Source of the DNA: Chrysomallon squamiferum
Taxonomy: Eukaryota; Animalia; Mollusca
NCBI GenBank assembly: GCA_012295275.1
Contig: CM022665.1
Location: 47,864,001-47,928,000 of the forward strand
Length of the DNA stretch: 64,000 bases
Direction: 5' to 3'
The notes below the pieces were generated by a model, which was given only the letters and a program-made list of their open reading frames with translations, was not told the DNA's origin and made no database searches. Positions 4,549-64,000 of the stretch are shown piece by piece. The position numbers were made by a program, and so were the translations under genes. The stretch's first letter is position 1. Each line of letters opens with the position of its first letter.

Positions 4549-6906
4549 TGTTCTACTTCTGTAGTACATATTACATGCACGTTCTGTAGTACATATTACA
4601 TGCACGTTCTACTTCTGCAGTACATATTACATGCACGTTCTGTAGTACATATTACATGCACGTTCTGTAGTACATATTACATGCACGTTCTACTTCTGCA
4701 GTACATATTACATGCACGTTCTGTAGTACATATTACATGCACGTTCTGTAGTACATATTACATGCACGTTCTGCAGTACATATTACATGCACGTTCTGTA
4801 GTACATATTACATGCACGTTCTACTTCTGCAGTACATATTACATGCACGTTCTGTAGTACATATTACATGCACGTTCTACTTCTGCAGTACATATTACAT
4901 GCACGTTCTGTAGTACATATTACATGCACGTTCTACTTCTGCAGTACATATTACATGCACGTTCTGTAGTACATATTACATGCACGTTCTGTAGTATATA
5001 TTACATGCACGTTCTACTTCTGCAGTACATATTACATGCACGTTCTGTAGTACATATTACATGCACGTTCTGTAGTACATATTACATGCACGTTCTGCAG
5101 TACATATTACATGCACGTTCTGTAGTACATATTACATGCACGTTCTGTAGTACATATTACATGCACGTTCTACTTCTGCAGTACATATTACATGCACGTT
5201 CTGTAGTACATATTACATGCACGTTCTGTAGTACATATTACATGCACGTTCTACTTCTGCAGTACATATTACATGCACGTTCTGTAGTACATATTACATG
5301 CACGTTCTGTAGTACATATTACATGCACGTTCTACTTCTGCAGTACATATTACATGCACGTTCTGTAGTACATATTACATGCACGTTCTGTAGTACATAT
5401 TACATGCACGTTCTACTTCTGCAGTACATATTACATGCACGTTCTGTAGTACATATTACATGCACGTTCTGTAGTACATATTACATGCACGTTCTGTAGT
5501 ACATATTACATGCACGTTCTACTTCTGCAGTACATATTACATGCACGTTCTGTAGTACATATTACATGCACGTTCTGTAGTACATATTACATGCACGTTC
5601 TACTTCTGCAGTACATATTACATGCACGTTCTGTAGTACATATTACATGCACGTTCTACTTCTGCAGTACATATTACATGCACGTTCTGTAGTACATATT
5701 ACATGCACGTTCTGTAGTACATATTACATGCACGTTCTACTTCTGCAGTACATATTACATGCACGTTCTGTAGTACATATTACATGCACGTTCTGTAGTA
5801 CATATTACATGCACGTTCTACTTCTGCAGTACATATTACATGCACGTTCTGTAGTACATATTACATGCACGTTCTACTTCTGCAGTACATATTACATGCA
5901 CGTTCTGTAGTACATATTACATGCACGTTCTGTAGTACATATTACATGCACGTTCTACTTCTGCAGTACATATTACATGCACGTTCTGTAGTACATATTA
6001 CATGCACGTTCTGTAGTACATATTACATGCACGTTCTACTTCTGCAGTACATATTACATGCACGTTCTGTAGTACATATTACATGCACGTTCTGTAGTAC
6101 ATATTACATGCACGTTCTACTTCTGCAGTACATATTACATGCACGTTCTGTAGTACATATTACATGCACGTTCTGTAGTACATATTACATGCACGTTCTA
6201 CTTCTGCAGTACATATTACATGCACGTTCTGTAGTACATATTACATGCACGTTCTGTAGTACATATTACATGCACGTTCTACTTCTGCAGTACATATTAC
6301 ATGCACGTTCTGTAGTACATATTACATGCACGTTCTGTAGTACATATTACATGCACGTTCTGTAGTACATATTACATGCACGTTCTACTTCTGCAGTACA
6401 TATTACATGCACGTTCTGTAGTACATATTACATGCACGTTCTGTAGTACATATTACATGCACGTTCTACTTCTGCAGTACATATTACATGCACGTTCTGT
6501 AGTACATATTACATGCACGTTCTACTTCTGCAGTACATATTACATGCACGTTCTGTAGTACATATTACATGCACGTTCTGTAGTACATATTACATGCACG
6601 TTCTACTTCTGCAGTACATATTACATGCACGTTCTGTAGTACATATTACATGCACGTTCTGTAGTACATATTACATGCACGTTCTACTTCTGCAGTACAT
6701 ATTACATGCACGTTCTGTAGTACATATTACATGCACGTTCTACTTCTGCAGTACATATTACATGCACGTTCTGTAGTACATATTACATGCACGTTCTGTA
6801 GTACATATTACATGCACGTTCTGTAGTACATATTACATGCACGTTCTACTTCTGCAGTACATATTACATGCACGTTCTGTAGTACATATTACATGCACGT
6901 TCTGCA
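4549..6906. repeat. Minisatellite of 25-bp (GTTCTGTAGTACATATTACATGCAC) and 31-bp (GTTCTACTTCTGCAGTACATATTACATGCAC) units
   Basis: Near-perfect tandem copies over ~2.35 kb, mostly in 31+25+25 = 81-bp triplets. Confidence 0.98.
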
Positions 6907-21915: not shown

Positions 21916-22917
21916 TTAATCGACGTCAGATAAGATGAGGTTGTCCAGAAGAGGCGAAGAATGACGTCTGAGGCGAACGAAGGTGACGTTGTCGTCGAAC
22001 GTGACCCGTTTAACGGGAGACGACGAGTCGAGCCGCCGCCGCCGTTGTTGTTGATGATGATGATGATGACGTCGTATCGCGTCGTCCGACGCTGCTTGGT
22101 TTCCGCTCAGCGTGACGTCACCGCGAGGCTCTCTGGTGGAGTGCGGACGTTGTTGTCTGTAGCCGTCCGTATTGAGCGAGCGAGTCAGTCTGCTGCTCGC
22201 CCTCGCTCTCCCACTCCTCGGCGAGCACCTGGGCGAGCTCCTGGGCGAGCTGTGGTTGTGTTTGCAGACGTCTGTGAACAGTGGAAGAACCGCCCGGGTC
22301 CTGTCGAGCTTCGCGAAGCCGGCCGATCGCGGAGGAGATCGACGAGGCGTGGTTCTGCCGGCAGGTGGCGCCACCACCGAGCTGCTGCCGTCGCCGTCGT
22401 CGTCGTCGTCGTCGTGGCTGCTGCTGCTGCTAGGTACCACGTCGCTGGCGAGCACGACGTTCCTGTACGAGGCTGCGGTGAAGTTGCTGAGGATGGACTT
22501 GGCGCTCGCCTCTGGCTGCAGAATCCCGCTGGAAGGTTTCCTCCTCGTCCTCGTGGTTGTCGTTGTCGTGGTTGTGGTAGTGGAGAAGAGTCTGAAATCT
22601 CTCGTCTCCGTGTTGGAAACCTTCCCGCTCGTTTCTTCTGACCTCGCGCACTGTTTGGATTTCCTTCCAGTGCTGCCGCTGATGATGGTGGCAGCAGCTT
22701 CACTTCTGTCTCTCTGAAACGCTGCCGTCGTCGTCGTCGCATCCGTTGCTGAAACGACGTCTGCCAGGGTGCAGGACGTGCCGCGGTGGTCGGCGCCGCC
22801 GTCACTGCTGTCTGGAGTTTTGTGATTAACTCGAGTCGCGACGGAGTAACTCCTCTGGTGGAAACTTCTTCCTCGTCCACGAGCTGGGTGAATGCGACAA
22901 CAGGTCGCTTCAGACAT
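21916..22917 (-). CDS. Uncharacterised 333-aa Ser/Arg/Thr-rich, probably disordered protein with a C-terminal PP1-binding RVxF-like motif (VKRVTFDDNVTFV)
   Basis: 1-kb stop-free frame whose high GC content falls sharply at both the ATG and the TAA into AT-rich flanks. It has poly-T/D/H/Q runs, and KRVTF lies at 21997-22011. It could also be a large terminal exon. Confidence 0.7.
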   Translation of the reverse strand: MSEATCCRIHPARGRGRSFHQRSYSVATRVNHKTPDSSDGGADHRGTSCTLADVVSATDATTTTAAFQRDRSEAAATIISGSTGRKSKQCARSEETSGKVSNTETRDFRLFSTTTTTTTTTTRTRRKPSSGILQPEASAKSILSNFTAASYRNVVLASDVVPSSSSSHDDDDDDGDGSSSVVAPPAGRTTPRRSPPRSAGFAKLDRTRAVLPLFTDVCKHNHSSPRSSPRCSPRSGRARASSRLTRSLNTDGYRQQRPHSTREPRGDVTLSGNQAASDDAIRRHHHHHQQQRRRRLDSSSPVKRVTFDDNVTFVRLRRHSSPLLDNLILSDVD

Positions 22918-23501
22918 CTTTTCTTTACAGTAACAGAAAAATATAAAAATATAAAAATATATAAAATTTAATAACGAAATAAGGAAATAAAAATCACCTC
23001 ACTGGCATTTAACAGCGCAAACACAATAAAAAAAAAACTCTCTTTAAAGCGAACATAAACAAGACGAATGAATAAACACGTCGATATATCGATCTGCTTA
23101 TCGATGAATTAATCCACGACAGGGCAGGCCGGCCTGGCTGCGTGCGTGCGTGCGTTTACTTCGGTAAGTCACGGATTTCAGAGTGAGGCAGTGTTATCAG
23201 AGTGAGGCAGTAGTGTTGCGGCAAACACATCGTTGTCGTAGCGAGGAAAAAGTCGCAGTGTATTTAATGAACAGTGTTTTCTCGAAGTGACGCGGTGTGC
23301 TAACCAGTGCAGTGGTTTTTGTGTGTTGATCGGGTTTTTGACGTTTAGGCCACGCCTCTCACGGCTGTCAATCAACCGGTTCTGTTACAGATATACCGCG
23401 TCGTGGAAGCTTTGTGTGAAATTTATATGTGTTTTTTTTTTATTTTGTGTGTGTTCAAACTGTGTACCAGTCTAAAACGATATCGATACGTTTAGGTGTG
23501 G

Positions 23502-25863: not shown

Positions 25864-26063
25864 NNNNNNNNNNNNNNNNNNNNNNNNNNNNNNNNNNNNN
25901 NNNNNNNNNNNNNNNNNNNNNNNNNNNNNNNNNNNNNNNNNNNNNNNNNNNNNNNNNNNNNNNNNNNNNNNNNNNNNNNNNNNNNNNNNNNNNNNNNNNN
26001 NNNNNNNNNNNNNNNNNNNNNNNNNNNNNNNNNNNNNNNNNNNNNNNNNNNNNNNNNNNNNNN
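25864..26063. other. Assembly gap (200 N)
   Basis: Run of N between the 21-bp minisatellite and the 374-bp satellite. True length and adjacency are unknown. Confidence 0.99.
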
Positions 26064-54438: not shown

Positions 54439-54573
54439 CTGTAAAATGTAATTTTAATTATTAAAAATTCAAACAAGTAAATTTATTATTTATTTTAACA
54501 AAACTGATATCTAATTCCTTTTTATAACTGTCAGTCGTGTTTTCATTATTATTATTACTTTTGTGATTTTCAG

Positions 54574-54770
54574 TATTTTGCTTCTTTTCAAGCTTGTCTG
54601 GTGTTTCTTTTAATGCAGCAGAAAACCTGAGTACAGAGGCTTTGAGTATCCCAGAAGCCCACCTTAAATCAGACCCTATAGAGATACCCAGCAATGAAAC
54701 TGTGTGCGGATACATTTTTGTCATTAAGCCCATCAATGGACACATTTCAACTGAGCTCAAATTACAGTGA
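54574..54770 (+). CDS. Possible terminal coding exon of an unidentified gene convergent with NADSYN1 (...NAAENLSTEALSIPEAHLKSDPIEIPSNETVCGYIFVIKPINGHISTELKLQ*)
   Basis: Non-repetitive open frame ending at TGA 54768-54770. Candidate acceptors are ttttcag| (54573), ttttcaag| (54592) and ttttaatgcag| (54618). No homology recognised. Confidence 0.35.
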
Positions 54771-54802
54771 TGCCTGGGCTTTTTCTGGCTGTCTGTTCCA
54801 TG

Positions 54803-55225
54803 TATAAAAAAAAAAAACACTGGCTCTTGGTAAATATATCTTTATCATAATTATAGTTGTATAAAAAAAAATCATTGGTTCACGGTAAATATAATTTTAT
54901 CATAATTATAGTAGTATAAAAAACATTGGATCTTGGTAAATATAATTTTATCATAATTATAGTAGTATAAAAAAAAAACATTGGTTCACGGTAAATATAA
55001 CTTTATCATAATTATAGTTGTATAAAAAACATTGGTTGTTTGTAATTATAATTTTATCATAATTATAGTAGTATAAAAAAAAAAACATTGGTTCACGGTA
55101 AATATAATTTTATCATAATTATAGTTGTATAAAAAACATTGGTTCTTTGTAATTATAATTTTATCATAATTATAGTAGTATGAAAAAAACCACTGGTTCA
55201 CGGTAAATATAATTTTATTGTAATT
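54803..55225. repeat. ~55-bp AT-rich minisatellite (TATAAAAAAACATTGGTTCACGGTAAATATAATTTTATCATAATTATAGT.G), ~7-8 copies
   Basis: Tandem copies alternating TTCACGG with (T/A)TCTTGG or TTTGT variants. Confidence 0.92.
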
Positions 55226-55579
55226 GTAGTTTTATATTTCCTCCGTTTCTTTACACTATACAGTGTGTGAGTCCACAACAATTAACATGATTTTTTTTTT
55301 TTTCTTCTAATTGTTGTTTGTCTTTCTTGGTGTGTTTGTTTGTAATAAATACCTGGACTCGTTTCATAGTGTATTTAACTGATTTTGTTTTTCCAAGGAT
55401 GAAAGTTGATAATTATTACCCTGATCATTTTTGTAATTTTATTCATTTGTATGTATATATATAAAATCTGGACAGTCACTATAACGAGACTGTAGCGAGG
55501 CTTTGAAGGCTCATGACATTCCGTGTGTCTGTCCATTCCTGCCTCAACTTAAAGGTTTCTGGAATTCTTTAAGTTGTTC

Positions 55580-57463: not shown

Positions 57464-57613
57464 TCACAGTGACACTTGGGTAAGAACTGAAACTGGTTTT
57501 GTTGATGACAACTCAGTTTTGTTATCTGATGTGGCAGTCCTCTCTGTACTCTTTGTCTCATGTCTGCTCAGTATCTGTGGATTTCTCTTGAGAGCAGCTG
57601 TCAAGATTTTCAT
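57464..57613 (-). CDS. NADSYN1: Probable last coding exon of NADSYN1: MKILTAALKRNPQILSRHETKSTERTATSDNKTELSSTKPVSVLTQVSL*
   Basis: Acceptor tgtttgtaacag|ATG is in phase 0 with the previous exon. Open 49 codons to TGA at 57464-57466. The tail is not conserved, so support comes from splice logic only. Confidence 0.65.
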   Translation of the reverse strand: MKILTAALKRNPQILSRHETKSTERTATSDNKTELSSTKPVSVLTQVSL

Positions 57614-58018
57614 CTGTTACAAACACAATTAATTTACTGCCATAATTAAGTTAATAGAGTAAGTCAGTGTAGGCATAGCATAATAAACTCCGTTATTTGT
57701 CAAAAATATTCTAATTAAATGTCTAGATTTTTTAAATAGTTCATTGAAAATACAACAAATTATCTTTAATGTGTAACTTATTTAGTGTGTAAACTTTCAC
57801 AAAAGAATATATCAGTGCGTGTGCAAACTATCAAAAACTGTGTTATAAAAAACAGTGTCACCAAAGCAATATGAAAATATATCTCCGTGAACAGTGGTAT
57901 TACAAACATATACCTCTGTCAAGGTATTATCAAAACATAACTATCAACAAAGGCATTAGAAAACCATATCTGTAAACAACAGCAACACTTGAAAGTGAAT
58001 CTGTGCATGTGAAAATAC

Positions 58019-58195
58019 CTCTCTGTCAATGCACGCAAACTGCCAGGGCCAGTGTGTGTTGTAGAGGAATTGGCGATGGTCAAAGCGGTTGTCATCAGGA
58101 CTGTAGGACTCTGCATGGTAGGCTGGAGTGAGAACAGTCATTTTGTGTCGGTTGATTGAGTAACTTCGGAAGAAATGTTTAACTTTGTCAGCAAC
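58019..58195 (-). CDS. NADSYN1: NADSYN1 coding exon: [59 protein letters not shown]
   Basis: [22 protein letters not shown] and WPWQF motifs. Acceptor is tgttacag|G and donor is GAG|gtattt. 177 bp. Confidence 0.95.
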
Positions 58196-58468
58196 CTGTA
58201 ACAAACGTGTTTTATTTTATCTACACCCTGCAAACAAGTTTGTGCATCAGTATCCTACGCTGAATTATGATTTGAGTCTATCACTGTCCTATAATACTTC
58301 TAACTTCTACAAACAACTTATATATGACCCTGATGCAGTTCTTCAAACATTTCAAAGTTGTGTAACCAGCTGATGAATACTTGGAATTTAAAACAAATTT
58401 ACTATCAACACAACAGCAAACCACAACTGGAGAAGAAGAAGAATGGAAGAGAGCATGAGACAGTTTAC

Positions 58469-58597
58469 CTGAGCTGGAGTGTAGCAGTGAGCCCAGACGT
58501 GTACAAGTTTACAAAACATGCTGTACGGTCCACACAACTTCTGTTTGCGCAGACGACCAAACACAGACAGTTCTTTGTACGTCATACCCATGTCTTG
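58469..58597 (-). CDS. NADSYN1: NADSYN1 coding exon: [43 protein letters not shown]
   Basis: DMGMTY.ELS..G.LRK...GPYSMFCKL motif. Acceptor is ggtttcag|C and donor is CAG|gtaaac. 129 bp, phase 0. Confidence 0.95.
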
Positions 58598-58869
58598 CTG
58601 AAACCGTCAACCACAAAACAATAACATGACAGTTTGCTTATCAACACAGAGTACTAACTACTGCTTTTTCAATAATTTAATATAATTTACAGTTGTCTTA
58701 AGGAGGTGTAATTTTTTTACATATATATATTTTTATATAAGAATAAACAAGGCTAGAAAAATGTGGAAAACTTAAATTACCTCCACCTTCAGACAAACTT
58801 AGTGTGTACTTATTTATATCAACATTTCAATCAAAGATGTATATTTTAAATTCTAATGTATATATACAC

Positions 58870-59005
<136 letters not shown>

Positions 59006-59182
59006 ATTAAACTTCATAATTTGTGTGATTAGTAATAGACAGTTCATGTCCTTCTTTACAGTAAACTAACTATATATGCACTTTTTACAACAATCTTCCC
59101 AAGTTATCTGATGAGATATTCAGTGTATAATGAAAGTCATTAACAGTTATGTTGTAATGTGTTTAAAATTTCTCTTCCTCAC

Positions 59183-59252
59183 CTCATCAGTCTGAGCAAT
59201 TCTTCCATCTGCTAATGGTTCCAGCTCAGCAGTAGGAGGAGCATCCAAGATC
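59183..59252 (-). CDS. NADSYN1: NADSYN1 coding exon: (G)ILDAPPTAELEPLADGRIAQTDE
   Basis: P.TAELEP...QTDE motif. Acceptor is ttttaacag|G and donor is GAG|gtgagg. 70 bp. Confidence 0.94.
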
Positions 59253-59762
59253 CTGTTAAAAATATTACAATACACAGTGTCACAGATGTTATAAAACTAG
59301 TGTTAAAAATATAGTGTCACAGGTGATATAATATTTAATTTTACAAGCATTAGATTATAAAACTAATGTTAGAAATGTTATGATTAGTGTTTTAATGTTA
59401 AAAGTGTTATAGTACTCACTGATAACAGTAATAACAATATTACAATACTGTTAAAAGTATTTTAATTATAACACTATCTGTTAACTGTTACACTGTCAAA
59501 AGCAGTAATAGCATTATTATTATGACACTATTAAAAATAGTAACAATGTTTTAATTATAACAATTTCTATTAAAATTAATAACACTGTTTTATTTCTGGC
59601 GCTGTTGAAAGTGATAATGTTGAAAGGAGGGATATGTATAAGACTTTCCACAATACCAAAAACATATTACGTAGATAGAATCCACCAACATTAAATTCAT
59701 ATATTTATAACAAATGAAACAATGAACAGTTGTATACACCATAATGAATTATGTCAACTCAC

Positions 59763-59894
59763 CCAAGAAGAGAGGTAAGTCCAAACTTCGTTACTGAGTA
59801 CTTAATAAAAAGTCGCAGATCTGTTTTACTGATTCCACCAATAGGGTTAACATCAGCACTGGAACAGTCATACTTTGTCATGTAGCCTCGTAAA
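59763..59894 (-). CDS. NADSYN1: NADSYN1 coding exon: (S)[43 protein letters not shown](G)
   Basis: [23 protein letters not shown] signature. Acceptor is tttcacag|T and donor is TGG|gtgagt. 132 bp. Confidence 0.95.
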
Positions 59895-60115
59895 CTGTGA
59901 AATACAGGTAAAGTACTTAGTTACATAGCCTTGTAAACTGTGAAATACTTTGTCATATAGCCTCGTAAACTGTGAAATACATATAAAATACTTAGTTACA
60001 TAGCCTTGTAAGCTGTGAAATACTTTGTCATGTAGCCTTGTAAACTGAAATATACTTTGTTACGTAGCCTTTTAAACTGAAATATACTTTGTCACATAGT
60101 CTTGTGCACTGTAAA
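59870..60115. repeat. Degenerate ~32-45-bp repeat, ~7 copies, containing the acceptor and first ~25 nt of exon 59763-59894
   Basis: TACTTTGTCATGTAGCCTCGTAAACTGTGAAA and diverged variants in tandem. Confidence 0.88.
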
Positions 60116-60244
60116 ATATAAAATTATACTTAACAATAAAATCTTATAAAAATTTAATACGATGTATGAATATTAATGATATGAAATGGAAGAAAAGATG
60201 GATATTTAAAGATTTATGCAGTTAAAATTAGAACACTTTCAAAC

Positions 60245-60351
60245 CTTTCGTCTACATTGGCTGATCCAAGAACCAGCAGACCTCCTGATCTGTTCCGAGC
60301 CCACAGACACAACTGAGCAAACATGTAGGCTAACACCATCCTTAGTCGAGC
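60245..60351 (-). CDS. NADSYN1: NADSYN1 coding exon: [35 protein letters not shown](S)
   Basis: AR.RMVLAY.FAQ and [11 protein letters not shown] motifs. Acceptor is tttacaacag|G and donor is AAG|gtttga. 107 bp. Confidence 0.95.
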
Positions 60352-61177
60352 CTGTTGTAAATACAATGTGTAAACATGTAGACTAACACCATCCTTAGAC
60401 GAGCCTGTTGTAAATACAATGTGTAAACATGTAGGCTAACACCATCCTTATCACGAGCCTGTTGTAAATACAATGTGTAAACATGTAGGCTAACACCATC
60501 CTTAGTCGAGCCTGTTGTAAATACAATGTGTAAACATGTAGGCTAACACCATCCTTAGTCGAGCCTGTTGTAAATACAATGTGTAAACTGTTGGCTAAAC
60601 CATCCTTAATGTTGTAAAAATACAATGTGTAAACATGTAGGCTAACACCATCCTTAGTCGAGCCTGTTGTAAATACAATGTGTAAACATGTAGGCTAACA
60701 CCATCCTTAGTCGAGCCTGTTGTAAATACAATGTGTAAACATGTAGACTAACACCATCCTTAGACGAGCCTGTTGTAAATACAATGTGTAAACATGTAGA
60801 CTAACACCATCCTTAGACGAGCCTGTTGTAAATACAATGTGTAAACATGTAGACTAACACCATCCTTAGACGAGCCTGTTGTAAATACAATGTGTAAACA
60901 TGTAGACTAACACCATCCTTAGTCGAGCCTGTTGTAAATACAATGTGTAAACATGTAGACTAACACCATCCTTAGTCGAGCCTGTTGTAAATACAATGTG
61001 TAAACATGTAGACTAACACCATCCTTAGTCGAGCCTGTTGTAAATACAATGTGTAAACGTGTAGGCTAACACCATCCTTAGACGAGCCTGTTGTAAATAC
61101 AATGTGTAAACATGTAGACTAACACCATCCTTAGTCGAGCCTGTTGTAAATACAATGTGTAAACATGTAGACTAACA
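60319..61177. repeat. 53-bp minisatellite, ~16 copies, containing the NADSYN1 acceptor and the first ~33 nt of exon 60245-60351
   Basis: Minus-strand unit is ACACATTGTATTTACAACAG|GCTCGACTAAGGATGGTGTTAGCCTACATGTTT. Confidence 0.96.
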
Positions 61178-61436
61178 TTATTCTCACTGGGTCTGGCTGG
61201 TGATAGCAGCATGGTCTGATTAACATTATTTTGTCTTATTTAAAACAAACACATAATCTGACTTGGTTCCCAGTGGAGCCTGCAGTTAACATACTGATAC
61301 AAAATTTGTCTTTTTATCCCCATCATCTAATCACTGCAGGACATGCCCACTTTCAACAAACTTTTAGAAAGCAGCATCTCAACTACAAGGAATAAACATA
61401 TTTCAGTTTCACAACCAAAAACACATTTACAATTAA

Positions 61437-61903
61437 AGGTTTTTTCTAAAATTACCTGAATGTTCTGAAGAGCAAGGTTTTCTCTAAAATTACCTGAATG
61501 TTCTGAAGAGCAAGGTTTTCTCTAAAATTACCTGAATGTTCTGAAGAGCAAGGTTTTCTCTAAAATTACCTGAATGTTCTGAAGAGCAAGGTTTTCTCTA
61601 CAATTACCCGAATGTTCTGAAGAGCAAGGTTTTCTCTACAATTACCCGAATATTCTGAAGAGCAAGGTTTTCTCTAAAATTACCTGAATATTCTGAAGAG
61701 CTTGGTTTTCTCTAAAATTACCTGAATATTCTGAAGAGCAAGGTTTTCTCTACAATTACCTGAATGTTCTGAAGAGCAAGGTTTTCTCTAAAATTACCTG
61801 AATATTCTGAAGAGCTAGGTTTTCTCTAAAATTACCTGAATGTTGTGAAGAGCAAGGTTTTCTCTACAATTACCTGAATATTCTGAAGAGCTAGGTTTTC
61901 TCT
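61437..61903. repeat. 38-bp minisatellite, 12 copies, containing the last 30 nt of exon 61874-62009 and its donor
   Basis: Minus-strand unit is AGAGAAAACCTTGCTCTTCAGAACATTCAG|GTAATTTT. ATTACC recurs every 38 bp from 61451 to 61869. Confidence 0.96.
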
Positions 61904-62009
61904 CACACTTCCACCATGAACTTTGTATTTAGGCACGACAAGCAGAGCTGTTGTAAATATGCTGAGAACAGCTGTCACTGCGACGTCAATGGAAATTGAT
62001 AAATGATGA
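61874..62009 (-). CDS. NADSYN1: NADSYN1 coding exon: (S)HHLSISIDVAVTAVLSIFTTALLVVPKYKVHGGSVRENLALQNIQ
   Basis: HGGS.RENLALQN.Q motif. Acceptor is tttcaacag|T and donor is CAG|gtaatt. 136 bp. Confidence 0.94.
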
Positions 62010-62681
62010 CTGTTGAAAAGACAATGTTACACAGTAATAAATACATTAACAGAAAATGCTGTATTTAATCAGAGTTGTGTGTTGTAAATACAAACTATTT
62101 AAATATGGTTGACCTTTGATTTCATGGACTAAAAGGAGAACACTGTTCCTGAAAATGGAAAAGTCTGTTGCAAATATGGTTGACCTTTGATTTCATGGAC
62201 TAAAGATTAATTGAATGTAAAATTTACCAAAACATTAAACTTTAGTATCCGTAACAGCTTTGTAATACATTAATGTAATAATATAACAACTATACAGAGA
62301 GATAAAAACTAATGTAAACATTTGTCATACATGTGCAGAAAAATGGACAATACAATGTGTTAGGTTAGGATGGTTGTGAATGCATTTGTAAAATTTACTC
62401 TTATCTTGATGGTGGCTTGAATATTGGTTGCTATGACAGTAAAGTGGGTCTCAGAATAATTTAACACTACCTAGAGGTAAGGTTTCAAGCAGGAATTGGC
62501 AGTAAATTCAAATTTTGTGATTTTCCAGTTTTGGTCAAGACTTCCAGTTTTTCCAGAAAACAGAGTTCCATGAAATCAATGGTCAGCAGTAGCTGTGTGT
62601 TGTGATACAAAACAGTATTTAAACTACAGAGTGTAGATAATGACAAATACATTTAGATGAACTAAACAGTGTGTCTCTTAC

Positions 62682-62850
62682 CTGCCAACCTGTCCAGCAA
62701 GTTCTGCTGCTCTGCTGTTTGTGTCGGAGGAACTGTTCTCCGAGGACATGTAGCACGTGGTGAACAGTCGACCTGCCAACTCTCGTCTGTCAGCCGGCAC
62801 GTAACCCTCCTCTCCTACTATACGCTGTACATCTCCTATAACTCCTTTAT
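62682..62850 (-). CDS. NADSYN1: NADSYN1 coding exon: DKGVIGDVQRIVGEEGYVPADRRELAGRLFTTCYMSSENSSSDTNSRAAELAGQVG(S)
   Basis: TTCYM..NSS..T..RA.ELA motif. Acceptor is gttgttgcag|AT and donor is CAG|gtaaga. 169 bp, phases 1/2 agree with neighbouring exons. Confidence 0.93.
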
Positions 62851-63480
62851 CTGCAACAACAATAATAGTAATACACTAACAACATAGTAACTCTCCTACT
62901 ATACGCTGTACATCTCCTATAACTCCTTTATCTGCAACAACAATAATAGTAATACACTAACAACATAGTAACTCTCCTACTATACGCTGTACATCTCCTA
63001 TAACTCCTTTATCTGCAACAACAATAATAGTAATACACTAACAACATAGTAACTCTCCTACTATACGCTGTACATCTCCTATAACTCCTTTATCTGCAAC
63101 AACAATAATAGTAATACACTAACAGCATAGCAACAGAATATCAATAAAGCACAGTATCTGTAACAAAACAGTAACGTAATGTCTGTAACAACAATAATAA
63201 TAATACAGTAATAACATAGTAACAGAATATCTATAAAGCACAGTATCTGCAACAACAATAATAGTAATACACTAACAGCATAGCAACAGAATATCAATAA
63301 AGCACAGTATCTGTAACAAAACAGTAACATCTGTAACAACAATAATAATAATACAGTAATAACATAGTAACAGAATATCTATAAAGCACAGTATCTGCAA
63401 CAACAATAATAGTAATACACTAACAGCATAGCAACAGAATATCTATAAAGTACAGTAACAATACTGTAACAGTATTTGCA
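62811..63480. repeat. 80-bp repeat (4 copies, 62811-63130) containing the acceptor and first ~40 nt of exon 62682-62850, continuing into a degenerate derivative repeat
   Basis: CTCCTACTATACGCTGTACATCTCCTATAACTCCTTTATCTGCAACAACAATAATAGTAATACACTAAC recurs every 80 bp. ATCTGCAACAACAATAATAGTAATACACTAAC reappears at ~63246 and ~63393. Confidence 0.94.
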
Positions 63481-63720
63481 ACAAAACAGTAACACAGTAT
63501 ATCATATACTATATGTAAGAAAACATGATAATAAATATTTATCATATATGTTGAACAAAAATGTTACATATCAACTATACTGTAATAAAATATATCAAAA
63601 GTATATCTGTTACATATAAACATACTACAATAAAATATTATATCAAAAACATATCTATTACCTATCACACACACTATAATAAACGTTGTATAGCTATTAC
63701 CTATACAAAAAGTAAATTAC

Positions 63721-63872
63721 CTCCATTGTGACAAGCCTCACAGACAAGCTGACACATGGACGCTACGATACAGGCGGAGCTAGAACTGTCGATGCCACCA
63801 CTGAGAGGAAGAAAGTATCCACCCTGTCCACTGCGGCGCAGGTAATCCCACAACCAGCAGGCTGGACCCAGA
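63721..63872 (-). CDS. NADSYN1: NADSYN1 coding exon, start of the synthetase domain: (S)[50 protein letters not shown]
   Basis: Contains the SGGxDS PP-loop of NAD synthetases and closely matches the human [23 protein letters not shown] segment. Acceptor is tgtgtttcag|T and donor is GAG|gtaatt. Upstream exons lie beyond the window. Confidence 0.95.
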
Positions 63873-64000
63873 CTGAAACACACAGAACTCATTACACACC
63901 ACAACCAGCAGGCTGGACCCAGACTGAAACACACAGAACTGACTCACTACACAACCAGCAGGCTGGACCCAGACTGAAACACACAGAACTCATTACACAC
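63849..64000. repeat. 50-51-bp repeat (at least 3 copies, runs off the window) containing the acceptor and first ~24 nt of exon 63721-63872
   Basis: CACAACCAGCAGGCTGGACCCAGACTGAAACACACAGAACT is repeated at ~63849, ~63900 and ~63950. Confidence 0.93.

What the first reader, a model, noticed from the sequence alone, without database searches (positions are those of the whole stretch)
59870..64000. Five consecutive NADSYN1 exons each carry their own minisatellite built from their own splice junction
Seen: five unrelated arrays have units of ~32, 53, 38, 80 and 50-51 bp. Each unit is an exact exon/intron boundary: the splice site, 20-40 nt of exon and some intron. Four arrays amplify acceptors and one amplifies a donor, and all expand into the intron and leave the exon intact. 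This gives about 35 near-identical decoy splice sites in 4 kb of a housekeeping gene. Only the copy attached to the full exon gives the canonical protein. The four downstream exons lack such arrays. Inference: five independent expansions all straddling junctions is unlikely if repeat seeding were random. It suggests a junction-targeted duplication process, such as co-transcriptional or R-loop slippage or repair. It also implies strict exon definition, and possibly an NMD-coupled dial or a route to intron growth. A selection filter is the alternative, since duplications inside exons would be purged.
Basis: partly seen in the sequence, partly recalled or inferred. Interest (0 to 1): 0.85.

Follow-up and report, generated by a model that had tools for sequence, protein, structure and literature searches.

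The report
Splice-junction repeats in a snail NADSYN1
In an NAD-synthetase gene, likely from a snail, five neighbouring exon edges have each been copied head to tail into the next intron, leaving 36 spare splice sites while the RNA contigs examined use the real ones; this repeat type is already known from lancelets ("mirages") and some human genes and is likely harmless clutter, here unusually dense.

Summary
Five consecutive minus-strand NADSYN1 exons each carry an unrelated array whose unit spans a splice site: four acceptors (units 50-51, 81, 53, 32/43 bp) and one donor (38 bp), 36 decoys in all. Nearest named proteins are gastropod. DNA runs from three studies hold the stretch, so it is not an assembly artefact. 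In two RNA runs (one study, contigs only) the traced joints use the true sites at four of the five arrayed junctions; exon A's acceptor was not tested. 35 of 36 decoys would give a premature stop. This is a known kind: amphioxus 'mirage' minisatellites (Adh3, globins, troponin C, PGBD5) and human F7-type VNTRs. The scan noted the same class in annelid, urchin, clam, octopod and shark DNA. Junction targeting is not shown: the excess here (P 0.002-0.02) is post hoc, and 12 NADSYN1 orthologues not chosen for repeats gave 3 of 9 arrays at junctions against 1.3 expected (P 0.12), at other exons. No support for an NMD dial. Worth following: a synonymous exon D site appears to differ between the assembly and four runs, and both states occur among the array units.

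The parts
63721..63872 (-). NADSYN1 exon A (human aa ~335-384)
63848..64000 (-). Exon A acceptor array, 50-51 bp unit (about 26 intron + 24-25 exon nt), 2 decoys visible (63923 in frame, 63973), cut by the window end
63091..63457 (-). Older 148/84/64-bp array built from the intron side of the B acceptor (AG plus 3 exon nt at 63246 and 63394); not counted among the 36 decoys
62810..63134 (-). Exon B acceptor array, 81 bp x4 (40 intron + 41 exon nt), 3 decoys, in frame but with a stop in the unit
62682..62850 (-). NADSYN1 exon B
61874..62009 (-). NADSYN1 exon C
61436..61903 (-). Exon C donor array, 38 bp x12.3 (about 27 exon + 11 intron nt), 11 decoy donors
60319..61177 (-). Exon D acceptor array, 53 bp x16.3 (20 intron + 33 exon nt), 14 decoy acceptors
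60245..60351 (-). NADSYN1 exon D; position 60346 (third base of an Arg codon) appears to differ between the assembly and four runs
59870..60118 (-). Exon E acceptor array, mixed 32- and 43-bp units, 6 decoys, the most distal ones most diverged
59763..59894 (-). NADSYN1 exon E
57464..59252 (-). Exons F, G, H, I (59252-59183, 58597-58469, 58195-58019, 57613-57464), without clear junction arrays

Best explanation
These are five independent 'mirage'-type minisatellites: short segments spanning an exon edge, copied head to tail into the intron, likely by ordinary slippage or repair and likely without function. Shown: each unit is intron end plus exon start (or exon end plus intron start); the arrays add 1765 of 3414 nt around introns A-E; the traced mRNA joints use the exon-attached site. 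Inferred: (1) a first duplication arises between short similar words (about 1-16 nt at the array edges); (2) copies wholly inside an exon are purged, whereas a straddling copy leaves one intact exon with its own splice site; (3) it survives because the spliceosome keeps the site attached to the full exon (first donor; acceptor nearest the exon's donor) and NMD removes slips, since 35 of 36 decoys give a premature stop; (4) unequal exchange or conversion expands and homogenises the units and at times exchanges letters with the working exon, whose conserved copy may keep such arrays recognisable longer than intron-only ones.
For: Anatomy equals the published definition (PMC3087553 passages; PMC3902484 passages). 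RNA contigs: E-F joint in 2 of 2 runs, D-E joint in X9 and an exon D loose end in X8, B joined to C with over 1000 nt further upstream and no cover of the intron part of the B unit in 2 of 2, C true donor followed by the exon D head in X9. 35 of 36 decoys and 179 of 180 donor-acceptor pairs in intron C-D close the frame. No positional conservation: orthologues carry arrays at G acceptor, H acceptor (L002) and H donor (L006/L007), junctions that are clean here; one contig of organism B shows no repeat in the 30 intron letters displayed after the exon C donor. Turnover: a second E-array haplotype with 9 differences in X3; a 71-bp deep-intron duplication missing in X5. Intron-only arrays exist here and are 6 of 9 in orthologues. 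In the C array the two exon-like synonymous states lie only in the six proximal units.
Against: Five of 6-9 repeats in this gene lie at junctions against 1.4-1.9 expected (P 0.002-0.02), and all arrays of 12 or more copies do. Orthologues lean the same way (3 of 9 against 1.28, P 0.12). A plain selection filter is already part of that null, so a real excess would need something more. RNA runs hold unit-length contigs of the C and D arrays (68 and 83 nt, depth 3-14 against 15-20 for the mRNA); background pre-mRNA or DNA summed over 12-16 copies explains this, but some decoy use is not excluded.
Confidence: 0.62

Rival explanations
1. A junction-biased mutational process creates the seeds: breaks or polymerase stalls are likely more frequent at exon edges (the GC step from about 0.28 to 0.50, nucleosome edges, co-transcriptional R-loops or spliceosome pausing), so duplications start there more often than chance.
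For: Local excess P 0.002-0.02; same direction in orthologues; GC 0.39-0.56 in exons against 0.25-0.36 in introns; two earlier scan notes claim a modest excess in worms (e1-9822470, e1-8148234; unchecked leads, not support).
Against: The gene was selected for this feature; the unselected sample is not significant; intron-only duplications are common in the same introns; no shared sequence, unit length or side among arrays; 7 junctions of exons F-I, on the same transcript, lack arrays.
Confidence: 0.25
2. The arrays act as an expression dial: copy number would set the share of transcripts spliced to a decoy and destroyed by NMD.
For: 35 of 36 decoys give premature stops; unit-length RNA contigs exist for the C and D arrays; in human 6-16 and CBS two pseudo-donors are used besides the real one (PMC1557585 introduction).
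Against: Stops are expected in AT-rich intron sequence; positions are not conserved; the mRNA contigs run unbranched through the true sites; amphioxus mirages are reported not to disturb splicing.
Confidence: 0.05
3. A regional effect: the gene lies about 3 kb from a 28-kb block of 375-bp satellite, and repeat turnover is likely high across the area, junctions being hit by chance.
For: Satellite at 26064-54438 and many micro- and minisatellites in the window.
Against: The arrayed exons are the ones farthest from the satellite; the nearer exons F-I are clean.
Confidence: 0.06
4. Assembly artefact.
For: Copy numbers were not checked in long reads; one holder run may be the assembly's source; position 60346 may be a consensus error.
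Against: Five runs of three studies hold 0.78-0.85 of 545 sampled words; contigs of X1 and X3 tile the E array; D-unit contigs have depth 100 against 10 (X1) and 900 against 117-158 (X3); C-array bins reach 927 against 47 (X5); units carry structured variants.
Confidence: 0.02

Closest known systems
Amphioxus 'mirage' minisatellites (Adh3, globins BflGb6 and BflGb9, troponin C, PGBD5). Seen: passages of PMC3087553 and PMC3902484; the original Adh3 paper (Canestro et al. 2002, PMC117041) was not held and is known only through those passages
   Same: Tandem units spanning an intron-exon boundary; both donor and acceptor sides; unit lengths vary within a gene (Adh3 10-72 bp); many units keep AG/GT; splicing stays normal; alleles differ; two neighbouring exons affected in PGBD5; proposed route to intron gain.
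   Different: A likely gastropod, not a cephalochordate; five consecutive exons (I could not read how many Adh3 has); both ends of one intron amplified (12 donors, 15 acceptors); somatic instability not tested here.
Human F7 intron 7 37-bp VNTR, with 6-16, CBS, lamin B2 and PDGF cases (PMC1557585: abstract and introduction read)
   Same: First unit spans the exon-intron boundary; identical pseudo-donors follow; the most upstream donor is used. Direct model for the exon C array.
   Different: One array per gene and donor side only; four of the five arrays here are acceptors, where plain 5'-to-3' scanning would pick a decoy, so exon definition or proximity is needed (inferred).
Internal tandem repeats at exon-intron boundaries in human segmental duplications (PMC2812944, passages) and intron birth by duplication (PMC3265369, abstract)
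   Same: Tandem repeats at boundaries as raw material for new splice patterns.
   Different: No new intron or exon is seen here; exon structure is collinear with other animals.

Membership tests
Mirage minisatellite | Tandem unit spans an exon-intron boundary | tested here: met
   5 of 5 arrays
Mirage minisatellite | Extra copies lie in the intron; one full exon remains | tested here: met
   Open frame, collinear with four named orthologues
Mirage minisatellite | Many units keep AG/GT | tested here: met
   36 of 36 counted copies
Mirage minisatellite | Normal splicing of the mRNA | tested here: met
   True sites in contigs at B, C, D, E arrays; two runs of one study; A not tested; rare forms invisible
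Mirage minisatellite | Allelic length or sequence instability | tested here: inconclusive
   Second E-array haplotype with 9 differences in X3; copy numbers cannot be read from short-read contigs
Mirage minisatellite | Somatic instability (Adh3) | not testable with these tools
   No raw or long reads of several tissues were offered
NADSYN1 (glutamine-dependent NAD+ synthetase) | Homology to the synthetase domain with conserved exon order | tested here: met
   E 7e-19, 2.4e-12, 2.4e-28 to 6OFB for exons A, B, H; 57-94% identity to P0008 over nine exons
Regulated poison (NMD-coupled) splicing | Conserved position and measurable, regulated use of the PTC isoform | tested here: not met
   Positions differ between orthologues; no decoy joint in contigs; regulation itself not testable

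The most novel reading that the evidence does not exclude
In snails and other repeat-rich invertebrates exon edges are true hotspots for the birth or long life of minisatellites, and the arrays are not inert: they exchange letters with the working exon, so each array is a stock of synonymous and missense variants (8 of 14 D units carry Ala-to-Val) that can be written into a housekeeping gene. This intron, with 12 donors facing 15 acceptors and one open pair in 180, would be a natural test of how an identical acceptor is chosen by position alone.
Probability: 0.3. Interest if true: 0.6.

Novelty: new member of a known kind. Interest (0 to 1): 0.3.

Why it matters
The class has been described gene by gene; ten full-text searches showed no genome-wide test of junction enrichment and no mollusc case, though the library lacks most subscription papers. 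A gene with five arrays, four on the acceptor side, is a convenient model for two open points: how the last of many identical acceptors is chosen, and whether junction arrays arise more often or only last longer. Here they make up about half of the intron length around exons A-E. The locus itself most likely has no new function.

Tried and rejected
No whole genome is held, so the genome-wide test could not be run; the scan index has no other window of this genome and no look-alike. Reading X9's T-type exon D head as use of decoy 61087 was rejected: the adjoining contig runs on through unique exon D with one other letter. L025's 44-bp array looked like an acceptor array but is intron-only. Fossil junction copies at F and H: not significant after 12 tests. 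The 25/81-bp array at 4557-6904 and the 51-bp array at 54811-55236 have splice-like words, but no exon was found beside them (weak, no RNA laid there). The exon B homologue search gave only four fish proteins. Orthologue test: of 80 loci, 12 long-intron loci (one per exon-H cluster) were kept by my choice; duplicates, short-intron loci and loci without these introns were dropped, as were arrays more than 300 nt from the outer mapped exons; 2 of the 58 counted junctions (L025 D/E) are not a real intron; one L025 exon was placed by eye. The Adh3 paper could not be read; no supplements were opened.

Full report
Gene. The minus strand of 57464-63872 holds nine exons with AG/GT edges that join into one open frame. 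Exons A, B and H match human NADSYN1 (6OFB; E 7e-19, 2.4e-12, 2.4e-28). The best single-domain hits of exon H among 105 listed proteins are Gigantopelta aegis (93%) and Haliotis (90%), and all nine exons map collinearly on the Gigantopelta protein, so the animal is likely a gastropod. The 5' part of the gene lies beyond the window.

Arrays. TRF and a junction-probe scan confirm five unrelated arrays: A acceptor (50-51 bp, 2 decoys visible), B acceptor (81 bp, 3), C donor (38 bp, 11), D acceptor (53 bp, 14), E acceptor (32/43 bp, 6): 36 decoys, all with AG or GT. Each probe beats all 300 shuffles of its intron; none of the other 12 junctions has a significant spanning copy after correction. The arrays add 1765 nt, against 3414 nt for introns A-E (the 1765 includes 101 nt upstream of A). 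Short similar words lie at the array edges (about 1 nt for B, 4 for E, 11 for C, 16 for D, read by eye); the longer ones may be leftover part-units, not seeds. The same introns also hold intron-only repeats: 148/84/64 bp, 48 bp, 29 bp and a 71-bp duplication.

Consequence of decoy use. 35 of 36 decoys give a premature stop; the exception (63923) would add 17 residues. Of 180 donor-acceptor pairs in intron C-D only the true pair keeps the frame open. Because units repeat, these are about five independent tests, and stops are expected in AT-rich sequence, so this is no evidence of design.

Is it real DNA? Five runs of three studies hold 0.78-0.85 of 545 sampled words (one may be the source sample). 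X1 and X3 contigs tile the E array, X3 with a second haplotype of 9 differences; D-unit contigs are about 6-10 times deeper than single-copy flanks. In X5 the C-array bins reach 927 against 47, and a 71-bp deep-intron duplication is missing. Copy numbers cannot be read from such contigs.

Splicing. Two RNA runs (one study, contigs only). E-F joint: 2 of 2. D-E joint at the true acceptor: X9; X8 shows a loose end that matches exon D. One contig per run covers B and C back to back and continues over 1000 nt upstream from the true B acceptor, with no cover of the intron part of the B unit. The X9 contig leaves exon C at the true donor into the exon D head, and the adjoining contig runs through exon D. 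Against a clean reading: both runs hold contigs of the C array and of the D array, among them ones of exactly one unit plus 30 letters (68 and 83 nt; depth 3-14). Spread over 12-16 copies that is under 1x per copy, compatible with pre-mRNA or DNA, but minor decoy use is not excluded.

Exon-array exchange. At 60346 the assembly has an Arg codon ending in A (minus strand). Contigs anchored in unique exon D stop aligning at 60345 with 3 letters left in X1, X3 and X8; X9 shows one other letter there and its loose end gives T (the letter itself is shown for X9 only). Among the 14 decoys 6 have T and 8 have A. Either an allele moved between array and exon, or the assembly took the letter from the array. 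In the C array the exon's two synonymous states occur only within the six proximal units; the five distal units have neither. 8 of 14 D units carry an Ala-to-Val change. Exchange is inferred, not shown.

More than chance? With arrays collapsed and exon-internal placements removed, 1.4-1.9 of the 6-9 repeats are expected at junctions; P(>=5) is 0.002-0.02, and five in a row among nine exons has P 0.04. Both are post hoc. As a sample not chosen for repeats I fetched 80 NADSYN1 loci from metagenome contigs and kept 12 non-redundant long-intron ones: 3 of 9 arrays of 20 bp or more span a junction against 1.28 expected, P 0.12. They are L002 G acceptor (71 bp x2), L002 H acceptor (29 bp x2) and L007 H donor (44 bp x5.8): the same phenomenon at junctions that are clean in the window. 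One contig of organism B matches exon C (11 differences in 70) and shows no repeat in the 30 intron letters displayed. The arrays are thus recurrent, lineage-specific and not tied to a position.

Known kind. [quoted passage not shown] PMC3902484 (passages) adds troponin C and two neighbouring exons of PGBD5. PMC1557585 (abstract, introduction) covers human donor-side cases and shows that the most upstream donor wins. The lead to 'mirages' came from earlier scan notes and, in the same batch, from the paper search; the notes report the class in annelids, urchins, a clam, an octopod and sharks (unchecked). Ten searches showed no genome-wide enrichment test and no mollusc paper; coverage of the library is limited.

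Verdict. A real, unusually dense example of a described repeat class. The most likely story is ordinary duplication, survival because splicing keeps the exon-attached site, and expansion by unequal exchange (0.62). Biased birth at junctions stays open (0.25); a regulatory dial is unlikely (0.05). Interest 0.3.

Noticed in passing
window 26064-54438: About 28 kb of a 374-378-bp satellite (GC about 0.45) in two blocks after an assembly gap at about 25865-26063, ending 3 kb downstream of the NADSYN1 stop.
   Followed up: no
window 62101-62204: 71-bp duplication with 33-bp identical ends deep in intron B-C; absent in run X5, where the skipped piece mimics GT..AG ends although the run behaves as DNA.
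   Followed up: partly
window 62170-62585: Dispersed repeat in intron B-C (depth about 2000 against 47 in X5) with a 19-nt inverted repeat; possibly a MITE-like element (label recalled).
   Followed up: no
window 59253-59620: Intron E-F is rich in short decayed direct repeats, one matching the intron side of the F acceptor (p 0.007 before correction); possibly a worn-out array.
   Followed up: partly
window 57869-57979: Decayed 29-bp repeat with weak likeness to the exon H donor (p 0.04 before correction).
   Followed up: partly
window 21916-22998 (-): GC-rich 360-codon open frame, low complexity, apparently one exon; not identified.
   Followed up: no
window 4557-6904: 2.3-kb higher-order minisatellite of 25- and 31-bp units; no exon found beside it.
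   Followed up: partly
window 54461-54841 (-): Short frame resembling the end of a LINE reverse transcriptase (resemblance recalled, not tested), next to a 51/55-bp array.
   Followed up: no
L002 732-875 and 1822-1892; L007 2173-2427: Independent junction duplications in NADSYN1 of other animal-type loci (G acceptor, H acceptor, H donor).
   Followed up: yes
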